A DNA stretch of 51,073 bases from Opitutaceae bacterium (GCA_025352845.1 JANXSC010000341.1:1-51073); one strand, 5' to 3'. Counted from the first letter of the stretch, positions 24,371-49,440 are shown. The notes: generated by a model not told the origin, from the sequence alone. Translations and numbers: made by a program.

Positions 24371-25849
<1,479 letters not shown>

Positions 25850-25929
25850 GAGAGTGGGAAGTTTGGGAAACCGGAAAAAACGGGAGGGTGAAAAACGCCG
25901 GAGGCGGAAAGATGGAACGAAAAACTCTC

Positions 25930-26025: not shown

Positions 26026-26051
26026 AACAGGGTTGAGGTCATGGTGCCGAG

Positions 26052-29768: not shown

Positions 29769-29816
29769 GGCGAAATTGGCGAAGGCGCGCGTCGTGATGC
29801 GGAAAATTGCTTAGAA

Positions 29817-29875
29817 GTAGGACGGACTTCAGTCCGCCTTGGCGCGTGTCGAAGGCGGACTAAAGTCCGCCCTAC
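29817..29875. repeat. GTAG REP doublet overlapping the 3' end of the cytochrome-WD40 gene
   Basis: GTAGGACGGACTTCAGTCCGCC ... GGCGGACTAAAGTCCGCCCTAC; each arm has an internal hairpin. Confidence 0.85.
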
Positions 29876-31412: not shown

Positions 31413-31579
31413 CGGAGGATACAAGCTGAGCGCGAGCGAAGAACGGTCAATGCGATTTTCCAGCGATGCGAACTGCGAATCGCCGCGGCGATTCGCGAGA
31501 TAAGAATGGATAAAGGCCCGGCAGAGAGCTGGAGTGTCGCAGAACTCCGGCACCTCAAACGCCTCCTTCGCTCCCCACC

Positions 31580-32281
31580 ATGACGATTCGCAACAACCAA
31601 AACACGCCGGCATTCCCCTGGGACAAGTTCATCGACGCGATCAACAAGACCCACGGCATCGGTGTCCCCGCGCCGGCCTACCGCGATTTCGTCAAATTGC
31701 ATGTGCAGGCCATGGGCTCGGAGGGCATGGACTGGCACGTGCACACCATGCGCATGGCGGGCGGGATGGTGATGGAGGGCTACAACTTCCTTTCGTGGCA
31801 CCGCCGGTTCGTCCTCAAAATGGAGCAGCGCCTCCAGGCGATTCACCCCGAGCTCTACATCCCGTATTGGAACGCCGTGGCCGACCGCGCCATTCCGGCG
31901 GCACTGCAGGACAAGAAACTTTTGAAGAGCTGGGGCGTGACCCGCGGCAAATGGAATCCGAATCAACTGGCCTCGCCCGCCGACCTGGCCGCGTTGGACG
32001 GCATCGCCACCTTCAAAACATTCCAGCGGGTATTGGAAGGGGCGATCCACGGCGGAGTGCATATGGCCGTCGGCGGCGACTTGGCCGGGGCTTCCTCACC
32101 CAGCGACCCGCTCTTTTGGCTTCACCACGCCAACATCGACCGCATTTGGGCCACGTGGCAGCGCACCCATAAAAAAGCCGGACCGCCCAACCCCGGCGAC
32201 GTGCTCCAACCGTTGCCGCTCTTCGGCGTCACCGTCGCGAGCGTGCAGGACGTCTCGAAGCTCGGCTACAAATACGCCTGA
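31580..32281 (+). CDS. tyrosinase / type-3 copper protein
   Basis: CuA H41...H53/H55...FLSWH(74)RR, IPYWN, CuB LEGAIHGGVH and SPSDPLFWLHHANIDRIWATWQ, C-terminal LGYKY. Confidence 0.92.
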   Translation: MTIRNNQNTPAFPWDKFIDAINKTHGIGVPAPAYRDFVKLHVQAMGSEGMDWHVHTMRMAGGMVMEGYNFLSWHRRFVLKMEQRLQAIHPELYIPYWNAVADRAIPAALQDKKLLKSWGVTRGKWNPNQLASPADLAALDGIATFKTFQRVLEGAIHGGVHMAVGGDLAGASSPSDPLFWLHHANIDRIWATWQRTHKKAGPPNPGDVLQPLPLFGVTVASVQDVSKLGYKYA

Positions 32282-32336: not shown

Positions 32337-33602
32337 CTAAAACCCACTCTGCGTTTTCTCCGTCCGCAAAGTGTCCTCCACCACGATGCCGTCGGCGATC
32401 AGTTTTGCACAGGCTGACTCGTCGAGGCCGAGTTCACCGAGGATCGCGCGGTTGTGCTCGCCGAGGCGCGGGGCGGGCGTGCGGATCGAGCCGGGGGTGC
32501 CGGCCAGGCGCGGGACGACGTGGTGCATCGGGAGCGCGCCGATCTCGGCGTCGGGATAGTCGGCGACGACCTCGCGCGCGATCACGTGCGGATCGGCGAG
32601 GATTTGCGCGATGTCGTTGATGGGGCCGACGGTCACCTCGGCGTGCTCGAAGAACGCGACGTTCTCCGCCTGCGTGCGCGCGGCGATGAACGCGCCGATG
32701 ATCGCATCGAGGTCGGCGGCGTGCTGGAGCCGCGCGGCGTTGGTGCGGTAGCGCGGGTCGTCGATCAGGTCCGCGCGGCCGATGGCGCGGAAGAGGCGCT
32801 CGGCCATTTTTTGCGTCGAGCCCGAGACGGCGACGTAGCGGCCGTCACTACAGAGGTAGGTGTTGCGCGGCGCGGAATTCCCGGAGCGACTGCCGGTGCG
32901 TTTTTTTGTTTTGCCTGTGAGCCGATAGTTCGCGGCCTGCGGGCTGAGGATCGCGAAGAGCGGATCGAGCAGCGGGAGATCGATGACCTGGCCGCGGCCG
33001 CCGTTGTGCTCCACCTCGCGCAACGCGATCATCACGGCCGATGCGCCGTAGAGTCCCGCCACACCGTCGGCGAGATACATCGGCGGGAGCACGGGCTCGC
33101 GATCGGCGAAGCCGTTGATCGCAGCGAAACCGGACGCACCCTCGATCACCGTGCCAAAGCCGGGGCGCTGCGCATACGGGCCGTCCTGACCCCAGCCGGA
33201 GATGCGCGCGATCACGAGGCGCGGGTTGTGCTGGTGAAGGACGTCGGGGCCGAGGCCCATTTTTTCGAGCACGCCGGGGCGGAAGCTCTCGATGAAAATC
33301 GCCGCACTCGGCAGCAGCCGGAGCAACAGCTCGCGCGCCTCGGGCCGGCGCAACTCGAGGCAGAGGCTCTTTTTGTTGCGGGAATAAATTTTCCAATGCG
33401 TCGACACGCCCGCCGTCTGCCAGTCGCGGAGCGAGTCGCCGCCGGGCGGCTCGACCTTGATCACCTCGGCGCCGAAATCGCCGAGGATTTGGGTGAGGAC
33501 ATTGCCCGCGAAGAGCCGCGAGAGATCGAGCACGCGCAGGCCGGTGAGCGGGCCGCGCGCGGCCGGCGTGTAGTCGCGTTGTTTCAATTGCGAGGGCGGC
33601 AT
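32337..33602 (-). CDS. family III CoA transferase (CaiB/BaiF)
   Basis: GPLTGLRVLDLSRLFAG, LGDFGAEVIKVEPPGGD, RNKKSLCLEL, ESFRPGVLEKMGLG, ISGWGQDGPY, LADGVAG (catalytic Asp), APRLGEHN. Confidence 0.95.
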   Translation of the reverse strand: MPPSQLKQRDYTPAARGPLTGLRVLDLSRLFAGNVLTQILGDFGAEVIKVEPPGGDSLRDWQTAGVSTHWKIYSRNKKSLCLELRRPEARELLLRLLPSAAIFIESFRPGVLEKMGLGPDVLHQHNPRLVIARISGWGQDGPYAQRPGFGTVIEGASGFAAINGFADREPVLPPMYLADGVAGLYGASAVMIALREVEHNGGRGQVIDLPLLDPLFAILSPQAANYRLTGKTKKRTGSRSGNSAPRNTYLCSDGRYVAVSGSTQKMAERLFRAIGRADLIDDPRYRTNAARLQHAADLDAIIGAFIAARTQAENVAFFEHAEVTVGPINDIAQILADPHVIAREVVADYPDAEIGALPMHHVVPRLAGTPGSIRTPAPRLGEHNRAILGELGLDESACAKLIADGIVVEDTLRTEKTQSGF

Positions 33603-33633
33603 CGGGAATATTTTCGCGGCGCGCAGCCACTCA

Positions 33634-34500
33634 TCACGGCGCCGGTGCGATCGCGGCGAGCGCCTCGGCGCGGCGCAGGAACGGCGGGTCGATCATTTTG
33701 CCATCGACGAGAAACGCACCGAGGCCCTTGGCCTTCGCGTCGCGCGCGGCGGCGACAATGCGGTGCGCCTGCGCGAGATCGTCGGCGCTCGGGCGAAAGA
33801 CGTCGTTCGCGAGCGCGATTTGACTCGGGTGCAGGCAGGTTTTCCCGAGGAAACCGAGGCGCTTCGCGGCCAGCGCCTCGCGGCGGTAGCCCTCGGCATC
33901 CTTCACCGCGCCGAAGCCGGTGTCGCAGGCCCAAAGGCCCGCCTCGCCCGCGGCGAGGCGCACGGCGAGCTGCACGTGGTGCACGGCCGCCGCATCCATG
34001 CGGTCGATGCCGAGCGGCTCGAAGAGATCGCCGAGACCGAGCTGCAAACCCGCGACGCGCGGATCGGCGCGCGCGATCTCACCGGCGGCGCGGAGGCCGC
34101 GCGGCGATTCGATGTTGGCGAGAATCCGGATCGGCGACGCGAGGTCGCGCGCGGCTTCGAGCGGCGCGAGCGCGGCGGCGACGACACGGATGTCGTCGGC
34201 CGACTCGACCTTCGGCACGTTGAGGAAATCGAGGCGCGGCACGACGACGGTTGCGAGGTCGGCGGCGAAATGCGGAGAGTCGATGGCGTTGACGCGCACG
34301 ATCAGAATTTTTCGCGACGTGGCGAACGCGGGCGAGGCGAGTGCGCGGCCGACGAGTTCGCGCGCCTCGGCCTTGCGCTCCTCGGCGACGGCGTCCTCGA
34401 GATCGAAGGAGATGCCGTCGGCGTCGCCAGCGAGCGCCTTCGCGAAAAATTCCGGGCGCGTGCCCGGCACGAAGAGTTTGCTGCGGAGAAGCGGCGTCAT
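33634..34500 (-). CDS. CitE-like CoA-ester lyase (HpcH/HpaI aldolase/citrate lyase family)
   Basis: RSKLFVPG, FDLEDAV, VRVN, PKVES, IESPRG, GLGDL, GFLGKTCLHPSQI, VDGKMIDPP. Confidence 0.93.
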   Translation of the reverse strand: MTPLLRSKLFVPGTRPEFFAKALAGDADGISFDLEDAVAEERKAEARELVGRALASPAFATSRKILIVRVNAIDSPHFAADLATVVVPRLDFLNVPKVESADDIRVVAAALAPLEAARDLASPIRILANIESPRGLRAAGEIARADPRVAGLQLGLGDLFEPLGIDRMDAAAVHHVQLAVRLAAGEAGLWACDTGFGAVKDAEGYRREALAAKRLGFLGKTCLHPSQIALANDVFRPSADDLAQAHRIVAAARDAKAKGLGAFLVDGKMIDPPFLRRAEALAAIAPAP

Positions 34501-34509
34501 GGTTTCACG

Positions 34510-36666
34510 TCACGAAGCATCGACGACGCAGCGGAAGCCAAGCATGCCGCTGCGATCCTTGCACGGGGCCATGAGCAGATATTTGCCGTGCTGATCGAGT
34601 TGCCAAGCCTGCGGAAAATACCAGTGCGAGGTCTGCGGCCGGTAGGCGCTGCCGCCGCGCAGGATCGCGGCGCGCGTGTGATCGTCGGTGAACTCGTCCG
34701 TCCACTGCCAGACGTTGCCGACGAGATCCCTCACGCCGAACGGACTCGCGCCCGCGGGGTGCGCATCGACGTCGTCGGGAGGGAGGAGCGTGCGGCCGGT
34801 ATTAGGCGCGGGCATCGCGGCGGGATTCCACTCGTTGCCCCACGGGTAGAGGCGGCCGTCGCGGCCCTGCGCGGCATACTGCCATTCCCACTCGTGCGGC
34901 AGCCGTTTGCCGGCCCACGCGGCGTAGGCGCGCGCATCCTCGAGCGAGACCCACGTGACGGGTTTCTTCTCCCAGCCGCGCGGTGGCGCGCCGTCTTTCC
35001 AGTCGCGGAGAAAATGGTGAACGTCCTTCGGATGATAGCGTGTGGCGGCGAGAAATTTTTTGAAATCCGAGTTGGTGACCGGGTAGCGATCGATGTGAAA
35101 CGGCTTCATCGCCATGCGGTGCAGGTGCGAGCGACGCGGGGAATTTTCCCACGGGTATTGCACGTCTAGCCCGGCCCACGAGTAGCCTTCGATCTCGATG
35201 CCGGTGACCTTGAACTCGAACGTGCCGGCGGGAATCTTCACCATGCCGGCAGACACCTTCGCCTTCGGCTTCGTCGGGGCGATGGGGACGAGCTGTTGCG
35301 GGAGCGATTCCCAAACGTTGGAAAAATTTCCGAGCGGTTTCGCGGTCAGCTTGCGCCGCAGTTGCAGGAATTTCGCGAGTCCGGCGGGATTCGCTCCGCG
35401 CTCGAACGCGAGCACCGCGCCGAAACCCCGCGCTTCAAGTGCGCACGCGAGCGTCGCCTGACCATCGACGATGCGCGGCTGAATCTCCGCGCCCTGCCAC
35501 GCATCGTAGTAGCGACGGCCCGCGGCATGGGCGACGACGAGTTGATCGCCGACGAGGTCGTATTCGTTGCGGTTCACGATCGTCCAGAGTGTCGTGTCTC
35601 GGCCCGGAAACATCGTGGAAAAAACGCCCGGCTGGAGCGTGTGCGCGTAGGGCTCCCACTCGGCGCTGACGAGCAGGTCGGCGAACTGCCGGAAGACGTG
35701 CGTGATACGGCGCAGCGTCTCGCCGGCGCGCGGCGTGAACTGGTTCCAGACGCCCCAGACATTTTCCCACGCGACGTAGCCGATGCCGTTGAAGAAAATG
35801 AAATGGAAATCGTCGGTGCGGTCGCGCGCCCAGCGATTCTCGATGTTGATCAGGTGGCGCGGCTCGAGCCACTTCAACTTGCTCACGGCGGGCACGCCCT
35901 CGGTCGGCACGCGCTTGCTCCAGCTCTGGAGATTCCACATCAGGCCCTCGTCGGCGAGCGGCACGCCCTCCGGCTGGAACACGAGCGGGTGACCGATCTT
36001 TTCCGCGGCGTCGAGAAAGGCGCGGGGCACGCCGCTGTAGGTGTCGCCGTTCACGCCGTCGGCTCCGACCTCCTTCGCCAGCCGCACGACGGCGTCCCAG
36101 TCGGTCGTGCCGGTCGGCCGCGTGCCGTTGTCCCACGGCATGGTCGGGAGGAACACGCGCACGCCACGCCGGTGGAAATCCGCGACCGCCTGCTTCAGAC
36201 CCTCAAGACCGCCGGGGAGATCGCCCGCGAGCGCGGTCTGGTTGCGGTCGTCAATGCCGATGTTCGGATAGACATACCAGATGAGCACGCTGTCGATGCC
36301 GCCGTAGCGCCGCTCAAGGTCGTCGAGATATTTATCGACCGTATATTTCCCCGCGACCGGATCGTAGAAAAACCGATCCTCGACCATCATCTGCGTGTGG
36401 ACGAAGTTGCACTGCGCCCACTGAAATTCCGGGCGCGCGTAGATCGCGCCGTCGTAGCCCATGCGGATCAGGTGCTCTTGACGCCACTCGCGGTAGTCGC
36501 GCCGCCACACCGCGGCCGAGCGGTTCACGTCCTGCTGCCACTGCCCGATGGTCTGCAACGGCCAGCCGGGCATGCCGACCGGGAGCGGGAGGTAGGGGCC
36601 GTTGCGGGCGTGCGAGAGCTGGAAATCGACGGGGCGGGAGGCGGGAGCGTGCTGGGGTTTGCTCAT
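34510..36666 (-). CDS. putative TIM-barrel (glycosidase-like) domain fused to C-terminal FGE-sulfatase (SUMF1-fold) domain
   Basis: C-terminal IDRYPVTN, PVTWVSLEDARAYAAWAGKRLPHEWEWQYAAQG, SPFGVRDLVGNVWQW, ILRGGS, GFRC. N-terminal GGIDSVLIW, FHRRGVRVFLPTMPWD, GADGVNGDT, FQPE. Confidence 0.8.
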   Translation of the reverse strand: MSKPQHAPASRPVDFQLSHARNGPYLPLPVGMPGWPLQTIGQWQQDVNRSAAVWRRDYREWRQEHLIRMGYDGAIYARPEFQWAQCNFVHTQMMVEDRFFYDPVAGKYTVDKYLDDLERRYGGIDSVLIWYVYPNIGIDDRNQTALAGDLPGGLEGLKQAVADFHRRGVRVFLPTMPWDNGTRPTGTTDWDAVVRLAKEVGADGVNGDTYSGVPRAFLDAAEKIGHPLVFQPEGVPLADEGLMWNLQSWSKRVPTEGVPAVSKLKWLEPRHLINIENRWARDRTDDFHFIFFNGIGYVAWENVWGVWNQFTPRAGETLRRITHVFRQFADLLVSAEWEPYAHTLQPGVFSTMFPGRDTTLWTIVNRNEYDLVGDQLVVAHAAGRRYYDAWQGAEIQPRIVDGQATLACALEARGFGAVLAFERGANPAGLAKFLQLRRKLTAKPLGNFSNVWESLPQQLVPIAPTKPKAKVSAGMVKIPAGTFEFKVTGIEIEGYSWAGLDVQYPWENSPRRSHLHRMAMKPFHIDRYPVTNSDFKKFLAATRYHPKDVHHFLRDWKDGAPPRGWEKKPVTWVSLEDARAYAAWAGKRLPHEWEWQYAAQGRDGRLYPWGNEWNPAAMPAPNTGRTLLPPDDVDAHPAGASPFGVRDLVGNVWQWTDEFTDDHTRAAILRGGSAYRPQTSHWYFPQAWQLDQHGKYLLMAPCKDRSGMLGFRCVVDAS

Positions 36667-36692
36667 GGCGGGGAAATTATCGCTTTGGCGGC

Positions 36693-36704
36693 GCAAACGT
36701 TTGC
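36693..36704. promoter_or_regulatory. LacI-family operator O1
   Basis: Perfect palindrome GCAAACGTTTGC with central CG, between the divergent 36666 and 36749 starts. Confidence 0.85.
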
Positions 36705-36748
36705 TTTCGATTTTTGCGTTGTCTATGCAAATCGGGCCGCGCCGCCCC

Positions 36749-37753
36749 ATGAAGAAAATTTCCAGTCTGGTCGATGTGGCCCGCCGGGCCAAGGTGAACA
36801 TCTCGACGGTCTCGCGCACGATCAACCAGACCGGCAAAATCGGCGCCGCGACGCAGGCGCGAGTGCAAAAGGCCATGCGCGAGCTCGGCTACAAGCCGAA
36901 CCGCGTGGCGCGCCGCCTCCGCACCAGTCAGGGCACGAGCCATCTGCTCGGGCTGATCATCCCGAACATCCAGAATATTTTCTTCGCCGATCTCGCGCGC
37001 GGCGTCGAGGACGTGGCGTATCGCAACAACTTCGCCGTGCTGCTCTGCAACTACGATGAGGACGAGGCGAAGGAGCGGTTCTACCTCGACGTGATGCAGG
37101 CGGAATCGGTGGACGGAATTATTCTGCCGCCGATTCACGAGCACGATCCGGCGGTGCTGCAGGTCGTGCGCAACGGCACGCCGGTCGTGTGCGTCGATCG
37201 CATTTTGTCCGCTGGCGATTTGGACAAAGTGGAGGTGGACAACCACACGGGCGCGCTGAAGGCGGTGGAACACATCATCGCGCAGGGCCACCGGCGCATC
37301 GGCCTGATCGGCGGACCGGCGGATTCCTCGACGGGCCGCGAACGCTATCGCGGTTACAAGGACGCGCACGCGCAGGCCAGTCTCACGGTGAAAGCGGACC
37401 TCGTGCGCTTCGGCGACTTCAAGCAGGAGAGCGGCCGCCTGCTCGCGCACGAACTGCTCGCGCTGTCGAATCCACCGACGGCGCTGTTTGTGTGCAACGG
37501 CCTGATGATGGCCGGCGCGCTCGAAGCCATCGCCGCGCTCCGGCTGAAGGTGCCCAAGCAAGTCGGCATCGTCGGCTTCGACGACCTGCCGCTCGCAGAT
37601 GTGTTCAACCCGCCGCTGACCATCGTGCGCCAGCCCGCTTACGAGGTGGGACGATGCGCGGCGGAGTTGTTGCTGAAACGCATCGAGGATCCGGCACGGC
37701 CAATGACGAGCCTGAAGCTCCTGCCCGAGCTCGTGATTCGGAAATCGTGCTAA
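36749..37753 (+). CDS. LacI family transcriptional regulator
   Basis: SLVDVARRAKVNISTVSRTIN HTH, LGYKPNRVARRL hinge, VDGIIL, GHRRIGLIGG, VGFDD, PPLTIVRQP. Confidence 0.97.
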   Translation: MKKISSLVDVARRAKVNISTVSRTINQTGKIGAATQARVQKAMRELGYKPNRVARRLRTSQGTSHLLGLIIPNIQNIFFADLARGVEDVAYRNNFAVLLCNYDEDEAKERFYLDVMQAESVDGIILPPIHEHDPAVLQVVRNGTPVVCVDRILSAGDLDKVEVDNHTGALKAVEHIIAQGHRRIGLIGGPADSSTGRERYRGYKDAHAQASLTVKADLVRFGDFKQESGRLLAHELLALSNPPTALFVCNGLMMAGALEAIAALRLKVPKQVGIVGFDDLPLADVFNPPLTIVRQPAYEVGRCAAELLLKRIEDPARPMTSLKLLPELVIRKSC

Positions 37754-37806
37754 TCGCAACACGGCCCGAGTTGCACGCCGGAGGATTCGCTTGACGGAAA
37801 GGGCAG

Positions 37807-37818
37807 GCAAACGTTTGC
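37807..37818. promoter_or_regulatory. LacI-family operator O2
   Basis: GCAAACGTTTGC 10 bp downstream of a -35-like TTGACG (37791-37796) and upstream of the ribokinase. Confidence 0.85.
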
Positions 37819-37874
37819 ATCCGCGCGCGCCGGTTTCACTGCTCCGACGCGCTGCGCCCGCCTTTTTCGCTTTC

Positions 37875-38834
37875 ATGGCCTCTTCCCCCCACGTCGTCAT
37901 CGTCGGCAGCATCATGCACGATCTGACCTTGGTGTGCGCCGAATTTCCGCGCAGCGGCCAGACGATCGTGGGCCGGCTGCGCAGCGGTCTCGGCGGCAAG
38001 GGCTCCAATCAGGCGATCGCGTGCGGGCGTCTCGGCGTGCCAACTTGTTTCGTCGGTGCGATGGGCCGCGATGCCTTCGCCGCGGAAGCAAACGGGTTCT
38101 ATCGCCGCGAAAAAATCGGCTGCCGGCTCGCGCAAAAATCCGGCCGGCCCACCGGCACCGCAGTGATCACACTGAACCGTCGCGGGGAAAATCAAATTGT
38201 GATCGAGCCCGGCGCCAACGATTACCTCGCGCCAGGCGATGTGTCCGCGGCGTTGCTGACGCGCGCCAAAGTGGTCGTCACGCAGTTGGAATCGAATCTC
38301 GCGACGACCGCGCACGTGCTGCGCGTGGCGTACGCGGCGAGGGTGACGACGATTCTGAATCCCGCGCCGATGCGCGCGGATTTCGATCCGCGATTGTTGC
38401 AGCACGTGCACATTCTCATCCCGAACGAGAGTGAGTTCGTCGCGCTCGTGCGGACGCTGCCCGGAATTCGGCGACGCGGATTTTCCGAACGCGCGCTGCA
38501 CGCGATGAAGGGCGACGCGTTGCACGCGCTGTGCAGGAAATTTGGCGTGCCGACGCTCATCGTCACGCTCGGCGCGCGCGGGTGTTTTATTTCGGAGCGG
38601 ACCGGCCACGCGTTCGTGCCGGCGCATCGCGACATCGCGGTCGTGGACACGACAGGCGCAGGCGACGCGTTCTGCGGCGGATTTGCGGCCGGGCTCGTGC
38701 GGCACGAAGGAAACATCGTCGAAGCCGCGCGGCTCGGAACCGCAGTGGCGGCACTGTCGATCACGAAGCCCGGCGCCGCGCCCGCGATGCCGGCGCTGCG
38801 AGAGCTGCGACGCTTCCTCCGTTCCCGCGCCTAG
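37875..38834 (+). CDS. rbsK: ribokinase (PfkB family)
   Basis: GGKGSNQA, GENQIVIEPGAN, TQLE, LNPAP, PNESE, IVTLGARG, VDTTGAGDAFCG. Confidence 0.85.
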   Translation: MASSPHVVIVGSIMHDLTLVCAEFPRSGQTIVGRLRSGLGGKGSNQAIACGRLGVPTCFVGAMGRDAFAAEANGFYRREKIGCRLAQKSGRPTGTAVITLNRRGENQIVIEPGANDYLAPGDVSAALLTRAKVVVTQLESNLATTAHVLRVAYAARVTTILNPAPMRADFDPRLLQHVHILIPNESEFVALVRTLPGIRRRGFSERALHAMKGDALHALCRKFGVPTLIVTLGARGCFISERTGHAFVPAHRDIAVVDTTGAGDAFCGGFAAGLVRHEGNIVEAARLGTAVAALSITKPGAAPAMPALRELRRFLRSRA

Positions 38835-40711
38835 CCGGACGCGAGTTGCAACCACGTCAGGCGCCACGCTCCGTCTTCGCGCCCGCCGGCTTCGTAGTAG
38901 GGCGCAAACGTGAGCGGCGCGCGGTAGCCGAGCTTGAGGTGCACTGAAGGCGCCTCGCTTCCGGCCGCCGGCGCGAGGACTTCAAGCAAGGTCGATTCGC
39001 TTTCCGCGGGCAGACGAATCGTCTCCTCGGTTTTGAAGCCGTCGATCAGCGTCGTCGCATACACGAGCGGGCCGCGCGTGATCGCGGTGTAATCAAAGCG
39101 GAGCACTTCCTGCGCGACCGTGGAGCCATCCGGCGCGCGCGATTCCTGGACGTTGCGATTCGTGCGCCGGTGGAGGCGCGGCGACATCGGAAATTTCAGC
39201 GTGACGACATCGCCGGCCTGCCACACGCGATCGAGCACCGCGTAGGAATTCGGCACCGCAGCCGCGCCCACGTCGATGCCGTTCACCAGGATTGTCGCTC
39301 CGTCCGCCCACGCGGGGATGCGCACGCGCACGGCGAATTGCGCGCTGCGTTCGGGTCGCACGACGAGGCGAATCTCGCCGTCGAACGGGTAGCGCGTGTG
39401 CTGCTCCAAGTTTACCAGCCCCGCTTTCTCCGTCGGCACCGCGGCACGGCCCGGGCTGTAGAGATTGACCGCGATGTCCCCGTCGGCCGTGACGCCGTAG
39501 GCGACGGCGGGCAATTCCTCAAGCGCACACGGTCCGCTCGATTTGCAGCAGCGCCAATAGGTCGTGAACACGCGGCGGCCATTCGGGAACGAGTAGTAAC
39601 ACCAGTTATCGCCCGCCGGTGCCTGCGCGCCGAGGAGATCGTTATAGGCGGACTTTTCGATCTCGTCGGCGTATTTTGCCTCGCCGGTGATCGCGAGGAG
39701 TTCGCGGTTGAGTTGGATCCAAGAAAACGTGGAGCACGTCTCGACATAGCCGTGCGGGCTGAAGACGCCGGGCGGGTTGAACACCTCGCGCGAGCGGTGC
39801 GCGACGCCGCCCCACGGGCCGCCGCCGAGCGTGAGGTGATGATCGCGGATGCTCGCCCAAATTTTTTCGACCGCCTGCAGGTAGCGCGGATCGTCCGTCG
39901 CGCGGTGCAGCTTCGCGAGGCCGACGAGATTCCAACACAGCTGGTAGGCCTTGCCCGTGGCGACGAACGCCGCGTCCGTGCCCGCGAGCAGTTGCGGCAA
40001 CAACTCGAGCGCGGGAGCTTCGCTCGCCTGGCGGACAATCAGCTCGGCCAGTTCGAGGTATTTCCTTTCGCCCGTTGCCGAAAACAGTTCGACCGCCGGA
40101 TCGAGCAGCACCGTCGCGGAGAGGCCATGGTGATTGCCGAGCGTGGTGATTGCGATGCCGCCTTCTGTCAGCGTCCGCCAGCAGAGGTCGCCGATGCGGC
40201 GGGCGGCTGCGAGGTAGCGCGGCTCGGCGAGCGCGCGGGCCGACTCCAGCAGGCCGAGGATCAGGTAGCTGTGAACCCAGATGTCCCACGTGCGCACCGC
40301 CGGTGCCCCGTCCCACGTGCCCGGCGCGGGGCCGCGCCGGCACATGAAGCGCCGCTCGGGCGCGTAGGTGCCGAGATAACCGTCGGCGTCCTGCACGCTC
40401 ACCAGAAAATCCGCGACCCGGCGCACGCTCGCAGCCAGCGTGGCATCACTCGTGGCGCGCACCGCCCGCGCGGCGGCGCAGAGCCACTTGCCCGCGTGTT
40501 CTCCATACCAGTCGCCCTCGTGGTTGTGCGCGGTGCACTGCGGATGAAACAACGCGATGGCCGGGCTGCGCTCGTCGGCGATGAAGCGCGCGAGATGCGT
40601 CGCGCGGCTCGCGTCGATCGCCCGGCCGAGGAGCCCGCCCAAGCGGGCCGGGCTGGCGGAAGGGAATTGCATCGGACGCGCCATGCGAGGCGCAAAATCG
40701 GTAGGCGACAT
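38831..40711 (-). CDS. glycoside hydrolase family 127 (beta-L-arabinofuranosidase-like Cys glycosidase)
   Basis: WYGEHAGKW, QDADGYLG, GKAY, Zn/Cys motifs VETC and RCC, YADEIEKSAYN, VNLY, YPFDG, VRIPAW, RGPLVY. Start uncertain (40711, 40684 or 40672); no clear signal peptide. Confidence 0.9.
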   Translation of the reverse strand: MSPTDFAPRMARPMQFPSASPARLGGLLGRAIDASRATHLARFIADERSPAIALFHPQCTAHNHEGDWYGEHAGKWLCAAARAVRATSDATLAASVRRVADFLVSVQDADGYLGTYAPERRFMCRRGPAPGTWDGAPAVRTWDIWVHSYLILGLLESARALAEPRYLAAARRIGDLCWRTLTEGGIAITTLGNHHGLSATVLLDPAVELFSATGERKYLELAELIVRQASEAPALELLPQLLAGTDAAFVATGKAYQLCWNLVGLAKLHRATDDPRYLQAVEKIWASIRDHHLTLGGGPWGGVAHRSREVFNPPGVFSPHGYVETCSTFSWIQLNRELLAITGEAKYADEIEKSAYNDLLGAQAPAGDNWCYYSFPNGRRVFTTYWRCCKSSGPCALEELPAVAYGVTADGDIAVNLYSPGRAAVPTEKAGLVNLEQHTRYPFDGEIRLVVRPERSAQFAVRVRIPAWADGATILVNGIDVGAAAVPNSYAVLDRVWQAGDVVTLKFPMSPRLHRRTNRNVQESRAPDGSTVAQEVLRFDYTAITRGPLVYATTLIDGFKTEETIRLPAESESTLLEVLAPAAGSEAPSVHLKLGYRAPLTFAPYYEAGGREDGAWRLTWLQLASG

Positions 40712-40751
40712 TTGCGTTGACACAATCAGCAAAACAAAAACGGTCATTCAT

Positions 40752-40763
40752 GCAAACGTTTGC
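40752..40763. promoter_or_regulatory. LacI-family operator O3
   Basis: GCAAACGTTTGC between the divergent GH127 and TBDR genes. A degenerate adjacent site (TAAATCGCTTGC) and TTGACA at 40717-40722 are nearby. Confidence 0.85.
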
Positions 40764-40840
40764 TTAAATCGCTTGCGCCTCCCCGTTCCCCCAGCCCGCT
40801 CCGGGTTCACGCGCCTCCCCACCCCGTTTTTTCCCAACCC

Positions 40841-42994
40841 ATGAAAACAACCCTCGCCCGCCTCGCCTTCGCCGCAGCGTTCCCCGTCGTGCTGCTTTTG
40901 CTCGCGTCCCCGTGTCTCGCCCAGCAGGCCCCGGCCGCCAGCGCCAAGGACGAAGCCGTGCAGCTCGACAAGTTCACCGTCACGACCGGCTTCCGCTCGC
41001 CCAAGACCATCGATCAGATTCCTGGCGCGGTGAAACTCATCTCCCCGCAGGAAATCTCCGACACGCTGCTCCTGACCGATGACGCCACCGCCGTGCTGTC
41101 GCGCACGATTCCGGGCTACGCTGAGGCGACGCAGCAGATGCAGAACACCGGCGAGACGCTGCGCGGCCGTGTCGCGCTGCGACTGTTCGACGGCATCTCG
41201 CAGACGACGCCGCTGCGCGAGGCGAGCCGCAACGCCACCTTCGCCGACATGGGCGTCATCGAGCGCATCGAGGTGATCAACGGCCCCTCGGCCGCCGAGG
41301 GCATCGGCGCGGCGGGCGGTATCATCAACTACATTTCCAAGAGCCCGACCAAGGAGGGCAGCGAAGCGACCGTGACCTCGCGCTTCTCCACTCAGGGAGG
41401 CAGCAGGACCGACAGTTGGAAAGTCGGGCTCAACTACGCCAACAAACAGGGCCCCACCGACGTGTTTCTCGCCACGGCCTTCGTCAACCGCAACATGGCC
41501 AAGGATGCTCACGATCGCCTGATCGGCATGGGCCAGAGCGGCAGCACGATGGACACCGAGGAGAAAAATCTGTTTATCAAGCTCGGCCACAACTTCGGCG
41601 ACCGCGGCGCGCAGCGAGTCGGCCTCACGATCAGCCGCTTCGCCCTCGCCGGCAAATCGAACTTCAGCGCGTTTCCCGGCGACCGCGCGAAAGGCATCAC
41701 CGATACTTCAATTCACAAGCAGCCCCCGGGCGCGAAGTCGGAGTTCAACGAGTTCAACCAATACGCGCTGTCCTACAAGCATTCGGAGCTGCTCGGCGGC
41801 ACCCTGAACGTGCAGGCTTACAAATCGAGTCAGGCGATGCGCTTCCTCGCCGACCCCACCGATCCGGCGAAACAGGATCCGCTCATCGCTCCGCTCGGCA
41901 CGCTGATTGATCAGTCCGAGGTCAACTCGCAGAAGAAGGGTATCCGCAGCTCTTGGTCGCGCAACCGCCTCTTCGATGTCGAGGGCTTGGACCTTAATGC
42001 CGGCTACGATCACCTGAGGGAAACCGCGCAACAACGCCTCGCGCTCACCAACCGCATCTGGGTGCCGCCGATGGAATACACCAGCCACGCGCCGTTCGCG
42101 CAGGTCTCCTACAACCAAGGCCCGCTCACGGTCAGCGGCGGCATCCGCCACGAAGACGGCAAGCTCCACGTGGACAGCTATACGACGACTTATTTCAACA
42201 ACCGCGTCCTGGTGAACGGCGGCGAACTGAACTACAAATCGAACCTCCCGAACGTCGGCGCCATCTGGCGGCTGCCGCAGGGCTGGTCGGTGTTCGGTTC
42301 GTATAGCAAAGGCTTCACGTTGCCGAACGTCGGCATTCCGCTGCGGAACATCAACGTCCCCGGCAAATCCGTCTCCGGCATCATCGATTTGCAGGCCGTG
42401 ATTGTGGACAACAAGGAGGCCGGCTTCGCGTGGCGCGGCAAGGGCGCGAGCTTCAGCGCCTCGATCTATCGCTCCTACTCCAAGCTAGGTTCGTCGCTCA
42501 CGGTCAGCCCGATCACACGCGACTTCATCTTGCAGCGCCGGCCGGTCCAGGTCCAGGGCGGCGAGGCGAACGCCGAATACACGGTGAGCAAGACCCTCAA
42601 ACTTAACGCGCTCTACTCCCACATGGAGGGCAAGACCGTCGCCGTCGAGGGTGGCCCGCTCGTCAATCAACAGGGCGTGGCCAACATCAGCCCCGACAAG
42701 TTCGGCTCCTCGCTGACGTGGCGCTACGACGACAAGGCCACGCTCACCCTCGGCGAGACCACGCTCTTCGGCCGCGAGATCAACGTCGGCAAGGGCAATT
42801 TCGAGAAGACCCGCGGCTACACGCTGTTCAACCTCAGCACCACCTACGAGACGAAATGGGGCAACTTCTCCCTCGGCATCGAGAACCTGCTCGACCGCTA
42901 CTACATCCTCACGTGGGCGCAGATTGATCAGTTCCAGAATTATTTCGCAGGCCGCGGCCGGACGTTCACGGTCACGCACTCGATCAAGTTCTAA
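40841..42994 (+). CDS. TonB-dependent receptor, IutA/siderophore-receptor-like
   Basis: Signal peptide, TonB-box-like FTVTT, plug TLRGRVALRLFDGISQTTPLR...IERIEVINGPSA.EGIGAAGGIINYISK, C-terminal GIENLLDRYY...GRGRTFTVTHSIKF; 717 aa. Confidence 0.92.
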   Translation: MKTTLARLAFAAAFPVVLLLLASPCLAQQAPAASAKDEAVQLDKFTVTTGFRSPKTIDQIPGAVKLISPQEISDTLLLTDDATAVLSRTIPGYAEATQQMQNTGETLRGRVALRLFDGISQTTPLREASRNATFADMGVIERIEVINGPSAAEGIGAAGGIINYISKSPTKEGSEATVTSRFSTQGGSRTDSWKVGLNYANKQGPTDVFLATAFVNRNMAKDAHDRLIGMGQSGSTMDTEEKNLFIKLGHNFGDRGAQRVGLTISRFALAGKSNFSAFPGDRAKGITDTSIHKQPPGAKSEFNEFNQYALSYKHSELLGGTLNVQAYKSSQAMRFLADPTDPAKQDPLIAPLGTLIDQSEVNSQKKGIRSSWSRNRLFDVEGLDLNAGYDHLRETAQQRLALTNRIWVPPMEYTSHAPFAQVSYNQGPLTVSGGIRHEDGKLHVDSYTTTYFNNRVLVNGGELNYKSNLPNVGAIWRLPQGWSVFGSYSKGFTLPNVGIPLRNINVPGKSVSGIIDLQAVIVDNKEAGFAWRGKGASFSASIYRSYSKLGSSLTVSPITRDFILQRRPVQVQGGEANAEYTVSKTLKLNALYSHMEGKTVAVEGGPLVNQQGVANISPDKFGSSLTWRYDDKATLTLGETTLFGREINVGKGNFEKTRGYTLFNLSTTYETKWGNFSLGIENLLDRYYILTWAQIDQFQNYFAGRGRTFTVTHSIKF

Positions 42995-43030
42995 GCCCGC
43001 TTCGTCTCGATCGAGTTCCGCGCTCCCCTC

Positions 43031-45445
43031 ATGCTGCGACTTTGCGCGAGCGTGCTGGTGGGCGCGCTACTGGTCCTGTTCGCCGGGGCGGCACGCGCGG
43101 AGAATCTCGTGGCCGTCCGGGACGGCGCGCTGCCCGCGCCGCCCGGCTCCGCGGCGATCACATTGCTGGTCGCCGCCGACCAGCCGCTCGCCGTGCGCGA
43201 CGGCACCGTGTGGCGCTACGATCACTTCGCGCAGCAATGGACGAAGGCAGACGCCGGCTCCACCGATCGCGTCGTGCGCGGCGCAATCGCGCACGGCGCG
43301 CGACCATGGTTCCTCACTGGTCCCGCGGGAAACAACCTCGTTGATCGGATCGAAGCGTATGCGGGGGCGGACGGCGTGCGTCTCGCGACTCCGCCGCCGC
43401 TACCCTCGCCGCTCGTTTCGGCGCAGGGCGCCGTGCTCGGCAATGTTTTGTATGTGGGCGGCGTCGATGCGCGCGGCGCGGCGCACTGGTGGTCGCTCGC
43501 TTTGTCCGCAGAACCGGCGCAGTGGAAAATTCTGCCCGCGTGGGCCGCGCCGGCGCGCCGCGTCAGCGCCATCGTCGCTCTCGACTCCTCGCTCGTGCTC
43601 GCGACACCAACCGCCGCCGGCACGGCCGACGAACTCTGGCGTTGGACGGCGGCCGAAGGCTGGCGGCTGAGAGCCACACTCCCCGGCACCGTCGTCGACG
43701 GCGCGGCGCGTGCCGTCGGCCAGGCGCACGCGTTGTTTCTCGTGCGACTGCCGGCCGATTCTTCGACCGGACCGCGCGTGCAGCTCCACACATTCCACAC
43801 GATTACCGCGGCAACCAGCCCGCAGGGCACGGCGCTGCCGGGTGACGCCGTGCTCGGCACCGGCTGGCGCAACGGCCTCCTTTGGCTGGCTCCCGACGCC
43901 TCGCTCCACTCGGCGGAAATCCTCGGCAACAAACAACTGCTGCGCCCGCTCGACTGGGTGATGATCGTAGCCTACCTCGTGGGCATCGCCGCGATCGGCG
44001 TTTACTGCTATCGCAAGGAAAAGAAGCAATCGACCTCGGACTTCTTTGTCGGCGGTCGCTCGATTCCCTTCTGGGCCGCCGGCATCAGCCTCTACGCGTC
44101 CAACTCGAGTTCGATCGGCTACATCGCGACCACGGCAAAATCCTTCGCGACCAACTGGCAGTATTTTCTCGGCAACGTGACCAACGTCTTCGCGCTGGTC
44201 TTCGTCGCCATCTGGATCGTGCCGTTGCTGCGGCGGCTCGAACTGACATCCGTCTTCGACTACCTTGACCAGCGCTTCCATCACTCGGTGCGGCTGGCGG
44301 CGAGCGGCATGTGCATCTTGATGCACCTCGGCGGCCGCATGAGCGTGATCCTGTTTCTGCCGTCGCTCGCGATCTCGACGGTCACCGGGCTCGATGTCGT
44401 CTGGAGCATCCTGATGATGGGCGGCGTCACGATTGGCTATACCGCGCTGGGCGGAATGCGCGCAGTGATCTGGACGGATGTCGCGCAGGTAATCGTGAAA
44501 TTCGGCGGACTTTTTTTCGCGCTCGGTTTTATCATTCTCGCGCTCAAGGGCGGCACGGGGGAATTCGTCGCCGTGGCCGCCGCCGGTGAAAAGACGAAGA
44601 TGTTCGACTGGAGCTTCGACCTCACGAAGGCGACCGTGTGGGGTTTTATTTTTCTCCAACTGATGGAAACGGTGCTGACCTTCCCGAAAGATCAGGTGCT
44701 GATGCAGCGGGTCTTCGCCACGAAGTCGGAAAAGGAAGCGAGCCGCTCGATTTGGGTTTTTGCCGTGATCGTCCTGCCCGGCAGCCTGATCCTCTACCTC
44801 ATCGGCACGGGGCTCTACGTTTACTACCACAGTTTCCCCGAACGGATGAACCCGCTGCTGCCGACCGACGCCACGCTGCCGCTCTTCATCGCCTCGGAAT
44901 TGCCCGCGGGCGTCACCGGCCTCGTGCTCGCGGGGCTTTTCTCGGCCGCGATGGGCACGCTCTCGAGCATCCTCAACAGCGTGGCGACGATGGTCTCGGT
45001 CGATTTCTACGAAAGCCTCGCGAAGAAACCGAGCCAGAAGGTCAGTATTCGGATCGCCGAGTGGGTGACGGTGATCGCGGGTCTCATCGGCATCGGGCTC
45101 GCGGTGCTGCTCTCGCGGTTCAACATCAGCTCGTTCCTCGACGTGGCGATCGAGTTTGCCGGGCTGTTCGGCGGCGCGTTCGGCGGCGCCTACACGCTCG
45201 GCATGATGACGCGCCGCGCCAACTGGCAGGGCGTGCTCATCGGGATGGGCGTGAGCTTCGTGGGCACCTTCGCCGTGTGGTCACAACACCTCGTGCACCC
45301 GTTTCTCTACCTCGGCATTTCGGTGCTCATCTCGATCGTGGTGGGCTATGCGGCCAGTTATTTTTTCCCGCCGCCGCCGGCTGAGTCGCTGCACGGCCTG
45401 ACGATTCTCTCTCCGAAAAAATCGCCGGCACTCAGCGCGGCCTGA
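43031..45445 (+). CDS. sodium:solute symporter with N-terminal Kelch-like beta-propeller
   Basis: Signal peptide plus ~290 aa with Kelch-like PPLPSPL...LYVGG and WKILPAW; then LDWVMIVAYL, DFFVGGRSIPFWAAGIS, YTALGGMRAVIWTD, DQVLMQR and AGLFSAAMGTLSS. Confidence 0.92.
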   Translation: MLRLCASVLVGALLVLFAGAARAENLVAVRDGALPAPPGSAAITLLVAADQPLAVRDGTVWRYDHFAQQWTKADAGSTDRVVRGAIAHGARPWFLTGPAGNNLVDRIEAYAGADGVRLATPPPLPSPLVSAQGAVLGNVLYVGGVDARGAAHWWSLALSAEPAQWKILPAWAAPARRVSAIVALDSSLVLATPTAAGTADELWRWTAAEGWRLRATLPGTVVDGAARAVGQAHALFLVRLPADSSTGPRVQLHTFHTITAATSPQGTALPGDAVLGTGWRNGLLWLAPDASLHSAEILGNKQLLRPLDWVMIVAYLVGIAAIGVYCYRKEKKQSTSDFFVGGRSIPFWAAGISLYASNSSSIGYIATTAKSFATNWQYFLGNVTNVFALVFVAIWIVPLLRRLELTSVFDYLDQRFHHSVRLAASGMCILMHLGGRMSVILFLPSLAISTVTGLDVVWSILMMGGVTIGYTALGGMRAVIWTDVAQVIVKFGGLFFALGFIILALKGGTGEFVAVAAAGEKTKMFDWSFDLTKATVWGFIFLQLMETVLTFPKDQVLMQRVFATKSEKEASRSIWVFAVIVLPGSLILYLIGTGLYVYYHSFPERMNPLLPTDATLPLFIASELPAGVTGLVLAGLFSAAMGTLSSILNSVATMVSVDFYESLAKKPSQKVSIRIAEWVTVIAGLIGIGLAVLLSRFNISSFLDVAIEFAGLFGGAFGGAYTLGMMTRRANWQGVLIGMGVSFVGTFAVWSQHLVHPFLYLGISVLISIVVGYAASYFFPPPPAESLHGLTILSPKKSPALSAA

Positions 45446-46351
45446 TTACTTCCCAAGCTGCGCGAAGACGGCTTGGATACCCTCGGCGAACGCCGGCCGC
45501 CACACGTCCCAGTTGTGCCCACCATCGAGCACGCGCAGTTGCGCCGTGATCCCCTTCACGCGGCGCACGCGGTTGTAGAGCGTGTGCGCCTCGTAATCGA
45601 GATCGTGCGCGGCCTCGCGCGGATCGGCGAGCGCCTGCTCGTCGTCGCCCACGGCGATGAACATCACCAGCGGCAAGCCGCGCGCCTCGAAGGCCGGAAT
45701 CAGCGCCGGATAATTTTTCGCCGCGTAGATCGCGTCGTCGAAAAGTTTTTCGCCCCGCCCAAACGCCCCGAACTCCCGCGTGCTCGATCCTCGCGGCGGC
45801 AGCGGCACGTAAACCGCCGGGCTGAGCACAATCGCCGCGCCAAACAATTCCGGGTGCGCCAGCGCGAATCGGATCGCGCCGTAGCCGCCCATCGAAAAGC
45901 CCGCCACGATCCGCCCGCCACGATCTGTGCGCGTGCGGTAGGTCGCATCGACATGCGTGACGAAATCGGTCGTGAAGGCCGTTTCGATTTTCTCTCCCTC
46001 CGGCAATTCCCCCGAACCGCCGAATTGCGAATCGACATAGTAGCCCGCCCGACGGCTCGCCGGCGCATCCGGCATGATCGCGACGAGCGGCGGAATTTTC
46101 CCACTCGCGATCAATCGATCGAGTTCCGGCTGGATCGCGGCCCAGTCCTTCATGCCGCCGCCCCGGCCGTGCAGCAGGTAGATCGCCGGCAGGCCGGTCG
46201 TTTTCGTCTCATCCGCTCCCGGCGGCAGGTAGAGTTGGTAGGCAATCTCCTGCCCCAGCGTCGCAGAAAAAACTTTCCGCGCCAGCATCGTCCCCTCGGC
46301 GGCGACACTCGCCAGCGCCAGTGAGAAAAACGCCGCGACCGCGCGCTTCAT
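45446..46351 (-). CDS. secreted alpha/beta-hydrolase esterase (CE1/Fes-like)
   Basis: Signal peptide [32 protein letters not shown], nucleophile GFSMGG, VGDD, GGHNWDVW. ATGA overlap with the upstream RND stop. Confidence 0.88.
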   Translation of the reverse strand: MKRAVAAFFSLALASVAAEGTMLARKVFSATLGQEIAYQLYLPPGADETKTTGLPAIYLLHGRGGGMKDWAAIQPELDRLIASGKIPPLVAIMPDAPASRRAGYYVDSQFGGSGELPEGEKIETAFTTDFVTHVDATYRTRTDRGGRIVAGFSMGGYGAIRFALAHPELFGAAIVLSPAVYVPLPPRGSSTREFGAFGRGEKLFDDAIYAAKNYPALIPAFEARGLPLVMFIAVGDDEQALADPREAAHDLDYEAHTLYNRVRRVKGITAQLRVLDGGHNWDVWRPAFAEGIQAVFAQLGK

Positions 46352-49300: not shown

Positions 49301-49440
49301 ATGCGAATCGTGGGGAAATCCACCTGCGGCAGCGGCGCGACCGGCAGCAGCCCGTAAGAGAGCGCGCCGAGCAACACGAGCGCCACCGCGATCAGGCTGC
49401 TCGCCACGGGGCGGCGGACAAACGGACGCGAGAGGTTCAT
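46348..49440 (-). CDS. mdtC: RND efflux permease, MdtC-like
   Basis: [88 protein letters not shown]. Confidence 0.9.

What the first reader, a model, noticed from the sequence alone, without database searches (positions are those of the whole stretch)
32337..45445. Candidate undescribed catabolic system: LacI regulon joining furanosidases, ribokinase, CoA-transferase/CitE lyase and an IutA-like importer
Seen: eight genes in five apparent transcription units, each preceded by the same perfect operator: [GH-like/FGE fusion, CitE, CaiB], [LacI], [ribokinase], [GH127] and [TBDR, Kelch-SSS]. Known: family III CoA transferase + CitE-type lyase pairs activate and retro-Claisen-cleave 3-hydroxy-3-carboxy acids (citryl-, citramalyl-, malyl-CoA). 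GH127 cleaves 1,2-cis furanosides, and IutA-type receptors take up citrate-based ligands. Inference: the locus imports a pentofuranoside (probably riboside) of a citrate-like acid, hydrolyses it, phosphorylates the sugar and cleaves the aglycone. From memory and needing verification: ribocitrin (ribosylated homocitrate) is a natural precedent, and actinobacterial clusters combine ribokinase/CaiB/CitE with ADP-ribosylglycohydrolases, which GH127 may replace here. An alternative substrate is a branched carboxy-sugar such as aceric acid, but no dehydrogenase is present.
Basis: partly seen in the sequence, partly recalled or inferred. Interest (0 to 1): 0.85.

Follow-up and report, generated by a model that had tools for sequence, protein, structure and literature searches.

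The report
Ribocitrin-type riboside scavenging regulon
Nine neighbouring genes, eight of them next to three copies of one repressor-type palindrome and found together in two bacterial phyla, likely import a ribose-decorated citrate-like acid (best candidate: the Streptomyces product ribocitrin), likely cut off the riboses with two unstudied sugar-cleaving enzymes and likely split the acid into central metabolites, an untested route that I did not find in print.

Summary
Observation confirmed, with two corrections. There are three operator copies (GCAAACGTTTGC), two of them shared by divergent units, and a ninth gene, a secreted esterase, belongs to the system.

The operator is footprinted: 76 copies in 24 LacI-type loci, none inside a matched gene, and none in 54 LysR-type loci. 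Co-conservation holds from independent seeds: 12 of 12 CitE and 11 of 11 GH127 orthologues lie in the cluster.

GH127 keeps its Zn-Cys centre but has changed three of four arabinose-binding residues. The FGE fusion carries an amylase-like barrel.

Citrate-type transporters, a lactonase-like enzyme and, beside ARH operons, citrate lyase CitD-E/CitF point to a citrate-type aglycone. Best reading (0.65): catabolism of alpha-ribosides of such an acid; ribocitrin itself about 0.35. Nothing is assayed and the esterase is unexplained.

This scan already noted the fusion gene (e1-5280979) and an ARH version with the same ribocitrin reading (e1-9818490) on other DNA.

The parts
32337..33602 (-). Family III CoA-transferase (CaiB type A); predicted to activate the tricarboxylic acid
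   Evidence: PF02515 E=6.5e-116; nearest solved structure succinate-HMG CoA-transferase, E=2e-62, catalytic-Asp motif aligned; 74% to the CoA-transferase of a Methylobacterium 2-HCT/CitE operon
33634..34500 (-). CitE-superfamily acyl-CoA C-C lyase; predicted to give acetyl-CoA plus a 2-oxoacid
   Evidence: PF03328; TIGR01588 197 bits, below cut-off 443; D33, E35, D36, R69, E131, D158 in 56 of 56 and D271 in 55 of 56 relatives; roles from passages of PMC3832036
34510..36666 (-). Unclassified glycoside-hydrolase-like (beta/alpha)8 barrel plus beta-sandwich (about res 50-420) fused to an FGE-fold domain without the Cys pair; no signal peptide; predicted alpha-ribosidase
   Evidence: AF2 pLDDT 94.7 and 94.1; VIA-align Z 20.6 (5opq, rmsd 3.8, 324 aligned) and 20.2 (1izj, rmsd 3.9, 351 aligned); D208, E233, R278 in 79 of 79; PF03781
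36693..36704 (.). Operator 1, GCAAACGTTTGC, 26 nt before the FGE-fusion ATG and 44 nt before the LacI ATG
36749..37753 (+). LacI-family repressor; predicted to bind the operator
   Evidence: PF00356/PF13377; nearest models CytR, RbsR, PurR, all below cut-off
37807..37818 (.). Operator 2, 56 nt before the ribokinase ATG
37875..38834 (+). Ribokinase-type PfkB kinase, the only match at E<=1e-15 in this genome
   Evidence: TIGR02152 252 bits, cut-off 300; 16 of 17 PDB hits at E<=1e-20 are named ribokinase; genome tblastn
38831..40684 (-). GH127-fold Zn/Cys glycosidase with a changed sugar pocket; no signal peptide; predicted alpha-ribofuranosidase
   Evidence: PF07944/PF20736; E300, E315, C317, C379, C380, W133, W136, K245, Q248 in 64 of 64; swapped for ARH in 7 of 80 loci
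40752..40763 (.). Operator 3, 67 nt before the GH127 ATG and 77 nt before the TBDR ATG
40841..42994 (+). TonB-dependent receptor of the wider IutA/RhtA group
   Evidence: PF00593/PF07715; RhtA model 132 bits against cut-off 1100; 24% to IutA, 33% to a Pantoea receptor in a siderophore-uptake operon
43031..45445 (+). Sodium:solute symporter with a signal-like N-terminus and a weakly NanM-like domain
   Evidence: PF00474; nearest solved chain 5nv9, E=1e-67 (its name SiaT is recalled); NANM below cut-off
45446..46351 (-).
   Evidence: PF00756 E=1.8e-27; hydrophobic N-terminus; in 10 of 80 loci, never with the beta-lactamase-fold hydrolase found in 51

Best explanation
The locus is a conserved, operator-marked gene set that likely scavenges alpha-D-ribofuranosides of a citrate-type acid, with ribocitrin, the tririboside of (S)-homocitrate, as the best named candidate. 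Inferred steps: the TBDR brings the compound into the periplasm. The secreted esterase would remove an acyl group or open a lactone. The symporter would carry the anionic glycoside inside. Two cytoplasmic glycosidases, the amylase-like FGE fusion and the GH127, would cut different ribosyl bonds. Ribokinase would make ribose-5-phosphate. CaiB would form the acyl-CoA, and the CitE lyase would split it to acetyl-CoA plus a 2-oxoacid (2-oxoglutarate if homocitrate). LacI likely senses ribose or the riboside. Shown here: genes, folds, conserved catalytic residues, operator footprint and gene swaps. Not shown: any activity, binding, transcript or substrate. Odds: 0.65 for this class of substrate, about 0.35 for ribocitrin or a close congener.
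For: SUGAR IS RIBOSE. (a) A PfkB kinase hit in 71 of 80 loci; both types tested score best as ribokinase. (b) GH127 and ARH: 65 GH127 only, 7 ARH only, 0 both, 8 neither on truncated contigs. Five ARH genomes have no GH127 match above 31%; the ARH330 orthologue is in 0 of 28 GH127-type genomes. In L002 and L112 the operator stands before the ARH. ARH cleaving alpha-ribosyl bonds is established knowledge. (c) HypBA1 binds its sugar with R273, H194, H142, Y145 (passage, PMC10850190), and H142 binds O5 (passage, PMC10728902). Here three of these are Q248, W133, W136 in 64 of 64, with the Zn-Cys centre intact. (d) Two more distant FGE fusions without CitE still sit beside a ribokinase-like kinase (L089, L091). 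ACID IS CITRATE-LIKE. (e) L100 carries a 2-hydroxycarboxylate transporter and a sugar ABC system among five operators; L062 has TctC between CitE and CaiB. (f) The same CitE clade (100/99 support) forms sugar-free modules with CaiB type A or B plus TctC or 2-HCT, and in 4 of 7 a lactonase-like Amidohydro_2. Homocitrate forms a gamma-lactone, citrate cannot (own knowledge). (g) ARH330-seeded metagenome loci: 13 of 27 with at least 3 kb downstream carry CitF, next to a CitD-CitE fusion. Ensifer joins two ARH with CaiB (54%) and a different CitE clade. (h) CitE-family lyases cleave (3S)-citryl-, (S)-citramalyl- and (S)-malyl-CoA (passages, PMC6689899). By CIP priorities (my reasoning) (S)-homocitrate has that same geometry; the (R) form of lysine synthesis (recalled) does not. 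(i) Two to four glycosidases per cluster fit three ribosyl bonds.
Against: No activity, binding or RNA data. A secreted serine hydrolase is nearly core (61 of 80 loci), yet ribocitrin as described to me has no ester. PhyH (12), ThuA-cytochrome c (14), sulfatase (4) and GH13-like (4) accessory genes are unexplained. The CitE clade also occurs with amidase plus isochorismatase (L171) and with TauD, aconitase-family and ICL-family genes (L174), so it may serve other acids. A CitE-family enzyme cleaves (R)-HMG-CoA and CaiB's nearest structure is an HMG CoA-transferase. 14 of 27 long ARH loci lack CitF nearby, and the Nonomuraea, Mycolicibacterium and Deinococcus ARH+ribokinase clusters show no CaiB/CitE. 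The kinase is below the ribokinase cut-off. Only the best 80 of 422 stretches were examined, and kin are not independent. Ribocitrin appears in just 2 papers of the library, both tentative LC-MS calls; its alpha linkages are recalled, not read.
Confidence: 0.65

Rival explanations
1. The substrate is a riboside or oligoriboside whose acid part is ester-linked or is another 3-hydroxy acid (HMG, citramalate, itatartarate, a hydroxycitrate or isocitrate isomer). The esterase releases the acid and the glycosidases act on a different aglycone.
For: Near-core secreted esterase; CaiB nearest to succinate-HMG CoA-transferase; (R)-HMG-CoA lyase activity within the CitE family; varied partners of the CitE clade; in L100 a sugar ABC system and an acid transporter sit in the same regulon.
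Against: Most loci have a single symporter, suggesting one imported molecule. CitF at or near its cut-off beside ARH operons and a citrate:cation symporter point to a 2-hydroxy-tricarboxylate.
Confidence: 0.17
2. The system salvages NAD- or ATP-derived alpha-ribosyl compounds (PAR fragments, ribosyl-adenosine, the phosphoribosyl-dephospho-CoA group of citrate lyase), and the CoA genes handle a linked acyl group.
For: ARH substitution; CitD-E/CitF adjacency; these compounds carry alpha-1''-2' ribosyl bonds (recalled).
Against: No nucleoside hydrolase, Nudix or phosphatase family recurs in the 80 loci. Tricarboxylate transporters and the lactonase-like gene have no role in this model. [quoted passage not shown]
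Confidence: 0.08
3. It is an ordinary plant-glycan locus for beta-L-arabinofuranosides (extensin, arabinan) or RG-II aceric acid, with the CoA pair cleaving a branched carboxy-sugar.
For: GH127 Pfam match and intact catalytic centre; AcerHdlse model hit at 122 bits.
Against: AcerHdlse cut-off is 950. Three of four arabinose-binding residues differ. No arabinose isomerase, ribulokinase or sugar dehydrogenase family recurs. ARH can replace the GH127. Aceric acid is 5-deoxy (recalled), so a C5 kinase has no site.
Confidence: 0.05
4. The locus pirates a citrate-based, ribosylated metallophore for its metal, with carbon use secondary.
For: TBDR relatives at 33% lie in siderophore-uptake operons and IutA is a full-length match.
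Against: Control is by LacI or LysR sugar/acid regulators. No iron-siderophore ABC or reductase family recurs. A full catabolic set is present.
Confidence: 0.05

Closest known systems
GH127 beta-L-arabinofuranosidase HypBA1 (3WKW), the Bacteroides GH127 6EX6, and aceric acid hydrolase (5MQO as BT1003 is recalled)
   Same: Fold and Zn-Glu-Cys3 centre with Cys nucleophile and Glu acid/base; retaining cleavage of a 1,2-cis furanoside expected.
   Different: H142, Y145, R273 and H270 positions are W, W, Q, K in 64 of 64; partner is a ribokinase; interchangeable with ARH.
GH13 / GH27 / GH36 (beta/alpha)8 alpha-glycosidases and the 3,6-anhydro-D-galactosidase 5OPQ
   Same: Barrel plus beta-sandwich, Z 17-21; invariant Asp after strand 4 and Glu after strand 5.
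   Different: 6-16% identity; no Pfam glycosidase match; the GH13 region-IV His-Asp is not evident (ENRW instead); fused to an FGE fold.
Itaconate/citramalate degradation (CoA-transferase, hydratase, (S)-citramalyl-CoA lyase RipC/PA0883/Rv2498c) and malyl-CoA lyases
   Same: CoA-transferase plus CitE-family lyase logic; catalytic residues kept.
   Different: No hydratase, so the acid arrives hydroxylated; lyase is below the RipC cut-off (164 vs 375); tied to glycosidases.
Citrate lyase CitDEF
   Same: Same C-C cleavage; CitD-E fusion plus CitF sit behind homologous ARH operons.
   Different: The window has no CitD or CitF and uses a family III transferase.
Uncharacterised tandem ARH clusters (S. 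coelicolor SCO2028-2031; Nonomuraea L085; Ensifer L102; scan finding e1-9818490)
   Same: ARH with ribokinase and/or CaiB-CitE under LacI; ARH subtypes homologous to those replacing GH127 here, tested for L085 and L102.
   Different: ABC importer in place of TBDR+SSS, ARH in place of GH127 and usually of the FGE fusion. The SCO proteins are called uncharacterised DraG homologues (passages, PMC5087735); their sequences were not compared.

Membership tests
GH127 | (alpha/alpha)6 catalytic and middle domains above Pfam cut-off | tested here: met
   PF07944 139 bits, PF20736 82 bits
GH127 | Zn-Glu-Cys3 centre, Cys nucleophile, Glu acid/base | tested here: met
   E300, E315, C317, C379, C380 in 64 of 64; sequence alignment to HypBA1
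HypBA1-type beta-L-arabinofuranosidase | Sugar pocket H142, Y145, H194, R273 | tested here: not met
   W133, W136, Q248; only a His near 194 is kept; local alignment is low-identity
GH13 alpha-amylase family | (beta/alpha)8 barrel plus C-terminal beta-sandwich | tested here: met
   Z 20.2, rmsd 3.9, 351 aligned to 1izj
GH13 alpha-amylase family | Asp/Glu/Asp triad and family profile match | tested here: inconclusive
   D208 and E233 placed after strands 4 and 5 by DSSP and motif, not by residue-level superposition; third Asp not evident; no PF00128 hit
Formylglycine-generating enzyme | FGE fold | tested here: met
   PF03781; Z 21-23
Formylglycine-generating enzyme | Copper-binding Cys pair (recalled) | tested here: not met
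   A single Cys702, kept in 24 of 79
Ribokinase | Best family match and ribose-site motifs | tested here: inconclusive
   Best match TIGR02152 but 252 < 300; motifs align with solved ribokinases
Citrate lyase CitDEF | ACP and alpha subunits; citE equivalog score | tested here: not met
   No CitD/CitF in the locus; 197 < 443
CitE-superfamily acyl-CoA lyase | Arg, Mg-binding Glu/Asp and lid Asp | tested here: met
   R69, E131, D158, D271
Family III CoA-transferase | PF02515 and catalytic Asp | tested here: met
LacI regulon | Palindrome with central CG conserved upstream of member genes wherever the orthologous LacI occurs | tested here: met
   24 of 24 LacI loci, 0 of 54 LysR loci; 21 of 24 genome-wide copies in five genomes lie in the cluster
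LacI regulon | Direct binding and inducer response | not testable with these tools
   needs EMSA/DSF
IutA aerobactin receptor | Orthology and linkage to siderophore synthesis or uptake genes | tested here: not met
   24% identity, 132 vs 1100 bits for RhtA, no such neighbours
Ribocitrin catabolic pathway (undescribed) | Turnover of ribocitrin and (S)-homocitrate | not testable with these tools
   no assay

The most novel reading that the evidence does not exclude
A widespread, undescribed pathway eats ribocitrin-type alpha-ribosides of (S)-homocitrate. It has been built several times from non-homologous parts: GH127 plus a new amylase-like family or up to four ARH paralogues; two CaiB types or CitF; LacI or LysR; TBDR-SSS or ABC. 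This would give the first alpha-ribofuranosidases among GH127 and barrel glycosidases, a small-molecule role for many orphan bacterial 'ADP-ribosylhydrolases', and an (S)-homocitryl-CoA lyase, and would imply that ribosylated tricarboxylates are a common, overlooked carbon pool.
Probability: 0.4. Interest if true: 0.85.

Novelty: new variant of a known kind. Interest (0 to 1): 0.72.

Why it matters
It turns several orphan families into testable enzymes at once: an unclassified glycosidase-like family (2591 representatives at E<=0.001) now labelled SUMF1/EgtB/PvdO, a GH127 subfamily with a new pocket, tandem ARH genes so far studied as protein or nucleic-acid de-ADP-ribosylases, and a CitE clade. 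It also predicts an ecological fate for ribocitrin, whose biosynthesis is not established. Cultured non-pathogenic carriers exist.

Tried and rejected
Generic repeat finding showed only GC-rich noise; composition is flat. The sigma-70 scan found 0 promoters, and 21 terminator-like sites against 13.3 +/- 4.6 in shuffles, so transcription units could not be mapped. No RNA holder was listed. A class-wide sample found the CitE orthologue in 0 of 150 other genomes at E<=1e-60; the family sample found it in 12 of 250, so the system is patchy. The whole-protein fold search was dominated by the FGE domain, so the N-terminal part was folded alone. No solved IutA-type structure matched the TBDR. No ARH family match in the window's own genome, 91% complete. 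The Nonomuraea record could not be searched whole and the protein Atlas gave no result, so actinobacterial CaiB/CitE linkage and an Atlas name remain open. Paper searches: ribofuranosidase 0; GH127+ribokinase 0; ribokinase/CoA transferase/citrate lyase/ARH 8, ARH+ribokinase+operon 4, homocitrate catabolism 7, ARH+citrate lyase 4, none on this system by title and abstract start; one Caulobacter paper was read as passages and is unrelated. Met at the ribokinase N14 position (numbering and role recalled) as a sign of deoxyribose was rejected, because the top solved ribokinases have Met there too. Chance adjacency of the tyrosinase gene: 1 of 80 loci, so it is not a part. No supplements were read, and most subscription papers are not in the library.


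Full report
OBSERVATION. The palindrome GCAAACGTTTGC occurs at 36693, 37807 and 40752: three sites, the first between the FGE-fusion and LacI starts, the third between the GH127 and TBDR starts. Markov models expect 0.0007-0.002 copies in 13.1 kb; the genome has five in all, the other two inside frames I read as transposase-like. A ninth gene, a secreted alpha/beta esterase at 45446-46351, abuts the symporter tail to tail. The host is an Opitutaceae-like verrucomicrobium by its nearest relatives.

OPERATOR. In 24 loci with the LacI orthologue at 70% or more (some from the same genomes) there are 76 perfect copies, none inside a matched gene and each upstream of a member gene. The 54 LysR-type loci (1.1 Mb) have none. 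In five whole genomes 21 of 24 copies lie in the cluster, against 1 for the reversed control. The site follows rearranged genes and stands before the ARH where that replaces GH127. Binding is inferred.

CO-CONSERVATION. The fusion protein found 422 stretches in GTDB genomes; I examined the best 80. At E<=1e-6 they held a PfkB kinase in 71, the TBDR 66, CaiB 65, GH127 65, the symporter 63, CitE 58, LacI 16; many loci are cut by contig ends. Independent seeds in 250 family genomes: all 12 CitE orthologues lie within 1.6 kb of the fusion gene, and all 11 GH127 matches at 58% or more lie in the cluster. The system is patchy: 0 of 150 in a class-wide sample. Pseudomonadota use LysR, another CaiB type (about 29% to the window's), another ribokinase and a beta-lactamase-fold hydrolase in place of the esterase.

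THE SUGAR. GH127 and ARH never co-occur in the 80 loci (65, 7, 0 both, 8 neither), and genome-wide checks agree. The GH127 keeps E300, E315, C317, C379 and C380, but has W133, W136, K245 and Q248 where HypBA1 has H142, Y145, H270 and R273, in 64 of 64 relatives. The HypBA1 roles come from passages of PMC10850190 and PMC10728902. H142 binds O5, and D-ribose differs from L-arabinose at C3 and C4 while sharing the 1,2-cis geometry (own reasoning). The N-terminal part of the fusion folds confidently into a barrel plus sandwich like GH13, GH27 and GH36 enzymes (Z up to 20.6), with invariant D208 and E233 after strands 4 and 5. That suggests a retaining alpha-glycosidase; the FGE domain lacks the Cys pair. 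Of four more distant fusions without CitE, two keep a ribokinase-like neighbour and two do not. Neither glycosidase has a hydrophobic N-terminus; the TBDR, symporter and esterase do.

THE ACID. CitE keeps all catalytic residues named in passages of PMC3832036. Its clade (100/99; 43 rows chosen by me from the loci held, long-branch warning at the root) includes sugar-free modules in Methylobacterium, Roseomonas, Pseudoroseomonas, Cupriavidus, Caballeronia, Variovorax and Paraburkholderia. These have either CaiB type, TctC or a citrate:cation symporter in five, a lactonase-like amidohydrolase in four, and in two a LysR 52% identical to that of the riboside clusters. The same transporter types appear inside riboside clusters (L100, L062). 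Seeding on ARH330 gave 63 metagenome loci, mostly ABC importer plus four tandem ARH plus serine hydrolase; 13 of the 27 with 3 kb downstream carry CitF beside a CitD-CitE fusion, and 14 do not. Ensifer has LacI, ABC, two ARH, CaiB and CitE. Three separately placed lyase groups beside ribosidase candidates make a citrate-type aglycone likely.

CANDIDATE. Ribocitrin is a tririboside of (S)-homocitric acid with unknown biosynthesis, tentatively detected in freshwater Streptomyces (passages, PMC12381216 and PMC13136089). Its alpha-1,2 and alpha-1,3 linkages are recalled. It fits multiple glycosidases, the lactonase-like gene and the (S) preference of CitE-family lyases (passages, PMC6689899). Against it: the near-core esterase, the PhyH, ThuA-cytochrome c, sulfatase and GH13-like extras, other partners of the CitE clade, (R)-HMG-CoA cleavage in the family, and ARH+ribokinase clusters without acid genes. 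I give 0.65 to the class and about 0.35 to ribocitrin or a close congener.

COMPARISON AND NOVELTY. It works like a glycoside-scavenging operon joined to an itaconate-type CoA-transferase/lyase pair, but is not a member of the arabinan, RG-II, itaconate or CitDEF systems by the features tested. I found no description in ten paper searches, most seen only as listings with abstract starts. S. coelicolor SCO2028-2030 are called uncharacterised (passages, PMC5087735), and two were inactive on U-ADPr (passages, PMC13036486); PMC5036795 and PMC3751524 passages were irrelevant. No supplements were read. This scan noted the fusion gene and an ARH version with the ribocitrin reading on other genomes; these are unchecked AI notes, not support.

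VERDICT. Real, conserved and undescribed as far as searched; mechanism inferred. New variant of a known kind; interest 0.72.

Noticed in passing
window 31580-32281 (+): Stand-alone 233-aa tyrosinase-domain gene (PF00264) converging on CaiB; a homologue in only 1 of 80 related loci.
   Followed up: partly
window 46348-51026 (-): RND efflux genes (MdtBC-like by eye); the esterase ATG overlaps the stop of the last one, so here it may be co-transcribed with the pump rather than the regulon. L097 has the same upstream gene.
   Followed up: partly
window 24374-31613 (-): Planctomycete-type cytochrome c/WD40 and DUF1549/DUF1553 genes, with a 22-bp perfect palindrome at 31475-31496.
   Followed up: no
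L115:10986-13773 and 12 more metagenome loci: CitD-CitE fusion plus CitF directly behind four tandem ARH genes; no CitC/G/X seen by eye nearby.
   Followed up: partly
L175:6047-11064, L176:6032-9919, L103:5675-11177, L173:5095-9556: Sugar-free LysR-CitE-CaiB-lactonase-like modules with carboxylate transporters: a candidate free homocitrate(-lactone) catabolic operon.
   Followed up: partly
L174:4632-10561: CaiB, TauD dioxygenase, CitE, aconitase-family and ICL/PEP-mutase genes in one Paraburkholderia cluster; substrate unknown.
   Followed up: partly
L070:12135-14975 and 13 more loci: ThuA-cytochrome c fusion of about 950 aa inserted between the FGE fusion and GH127; PhyH dioxygenase in 12 loci.
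   Followed up: no
G000:C407:4656-6017: The window's genome has a 2-hydroxycarboxylate transporter 63% identical to that inside the L100 regulon, on another contig and without a perfect operator.
   Followed up: partly
L012:9995-14008: FGE fusion and GH127 frames are each split in this MAG, by assembly error or decay.
   Followed up: no
L089:7357-15000, L091:6884-11200: More distant FGE fusions beside a ribokinase-like kinase and a ureide-permease-family transporter, without CoA genes.
   Followed up: partly
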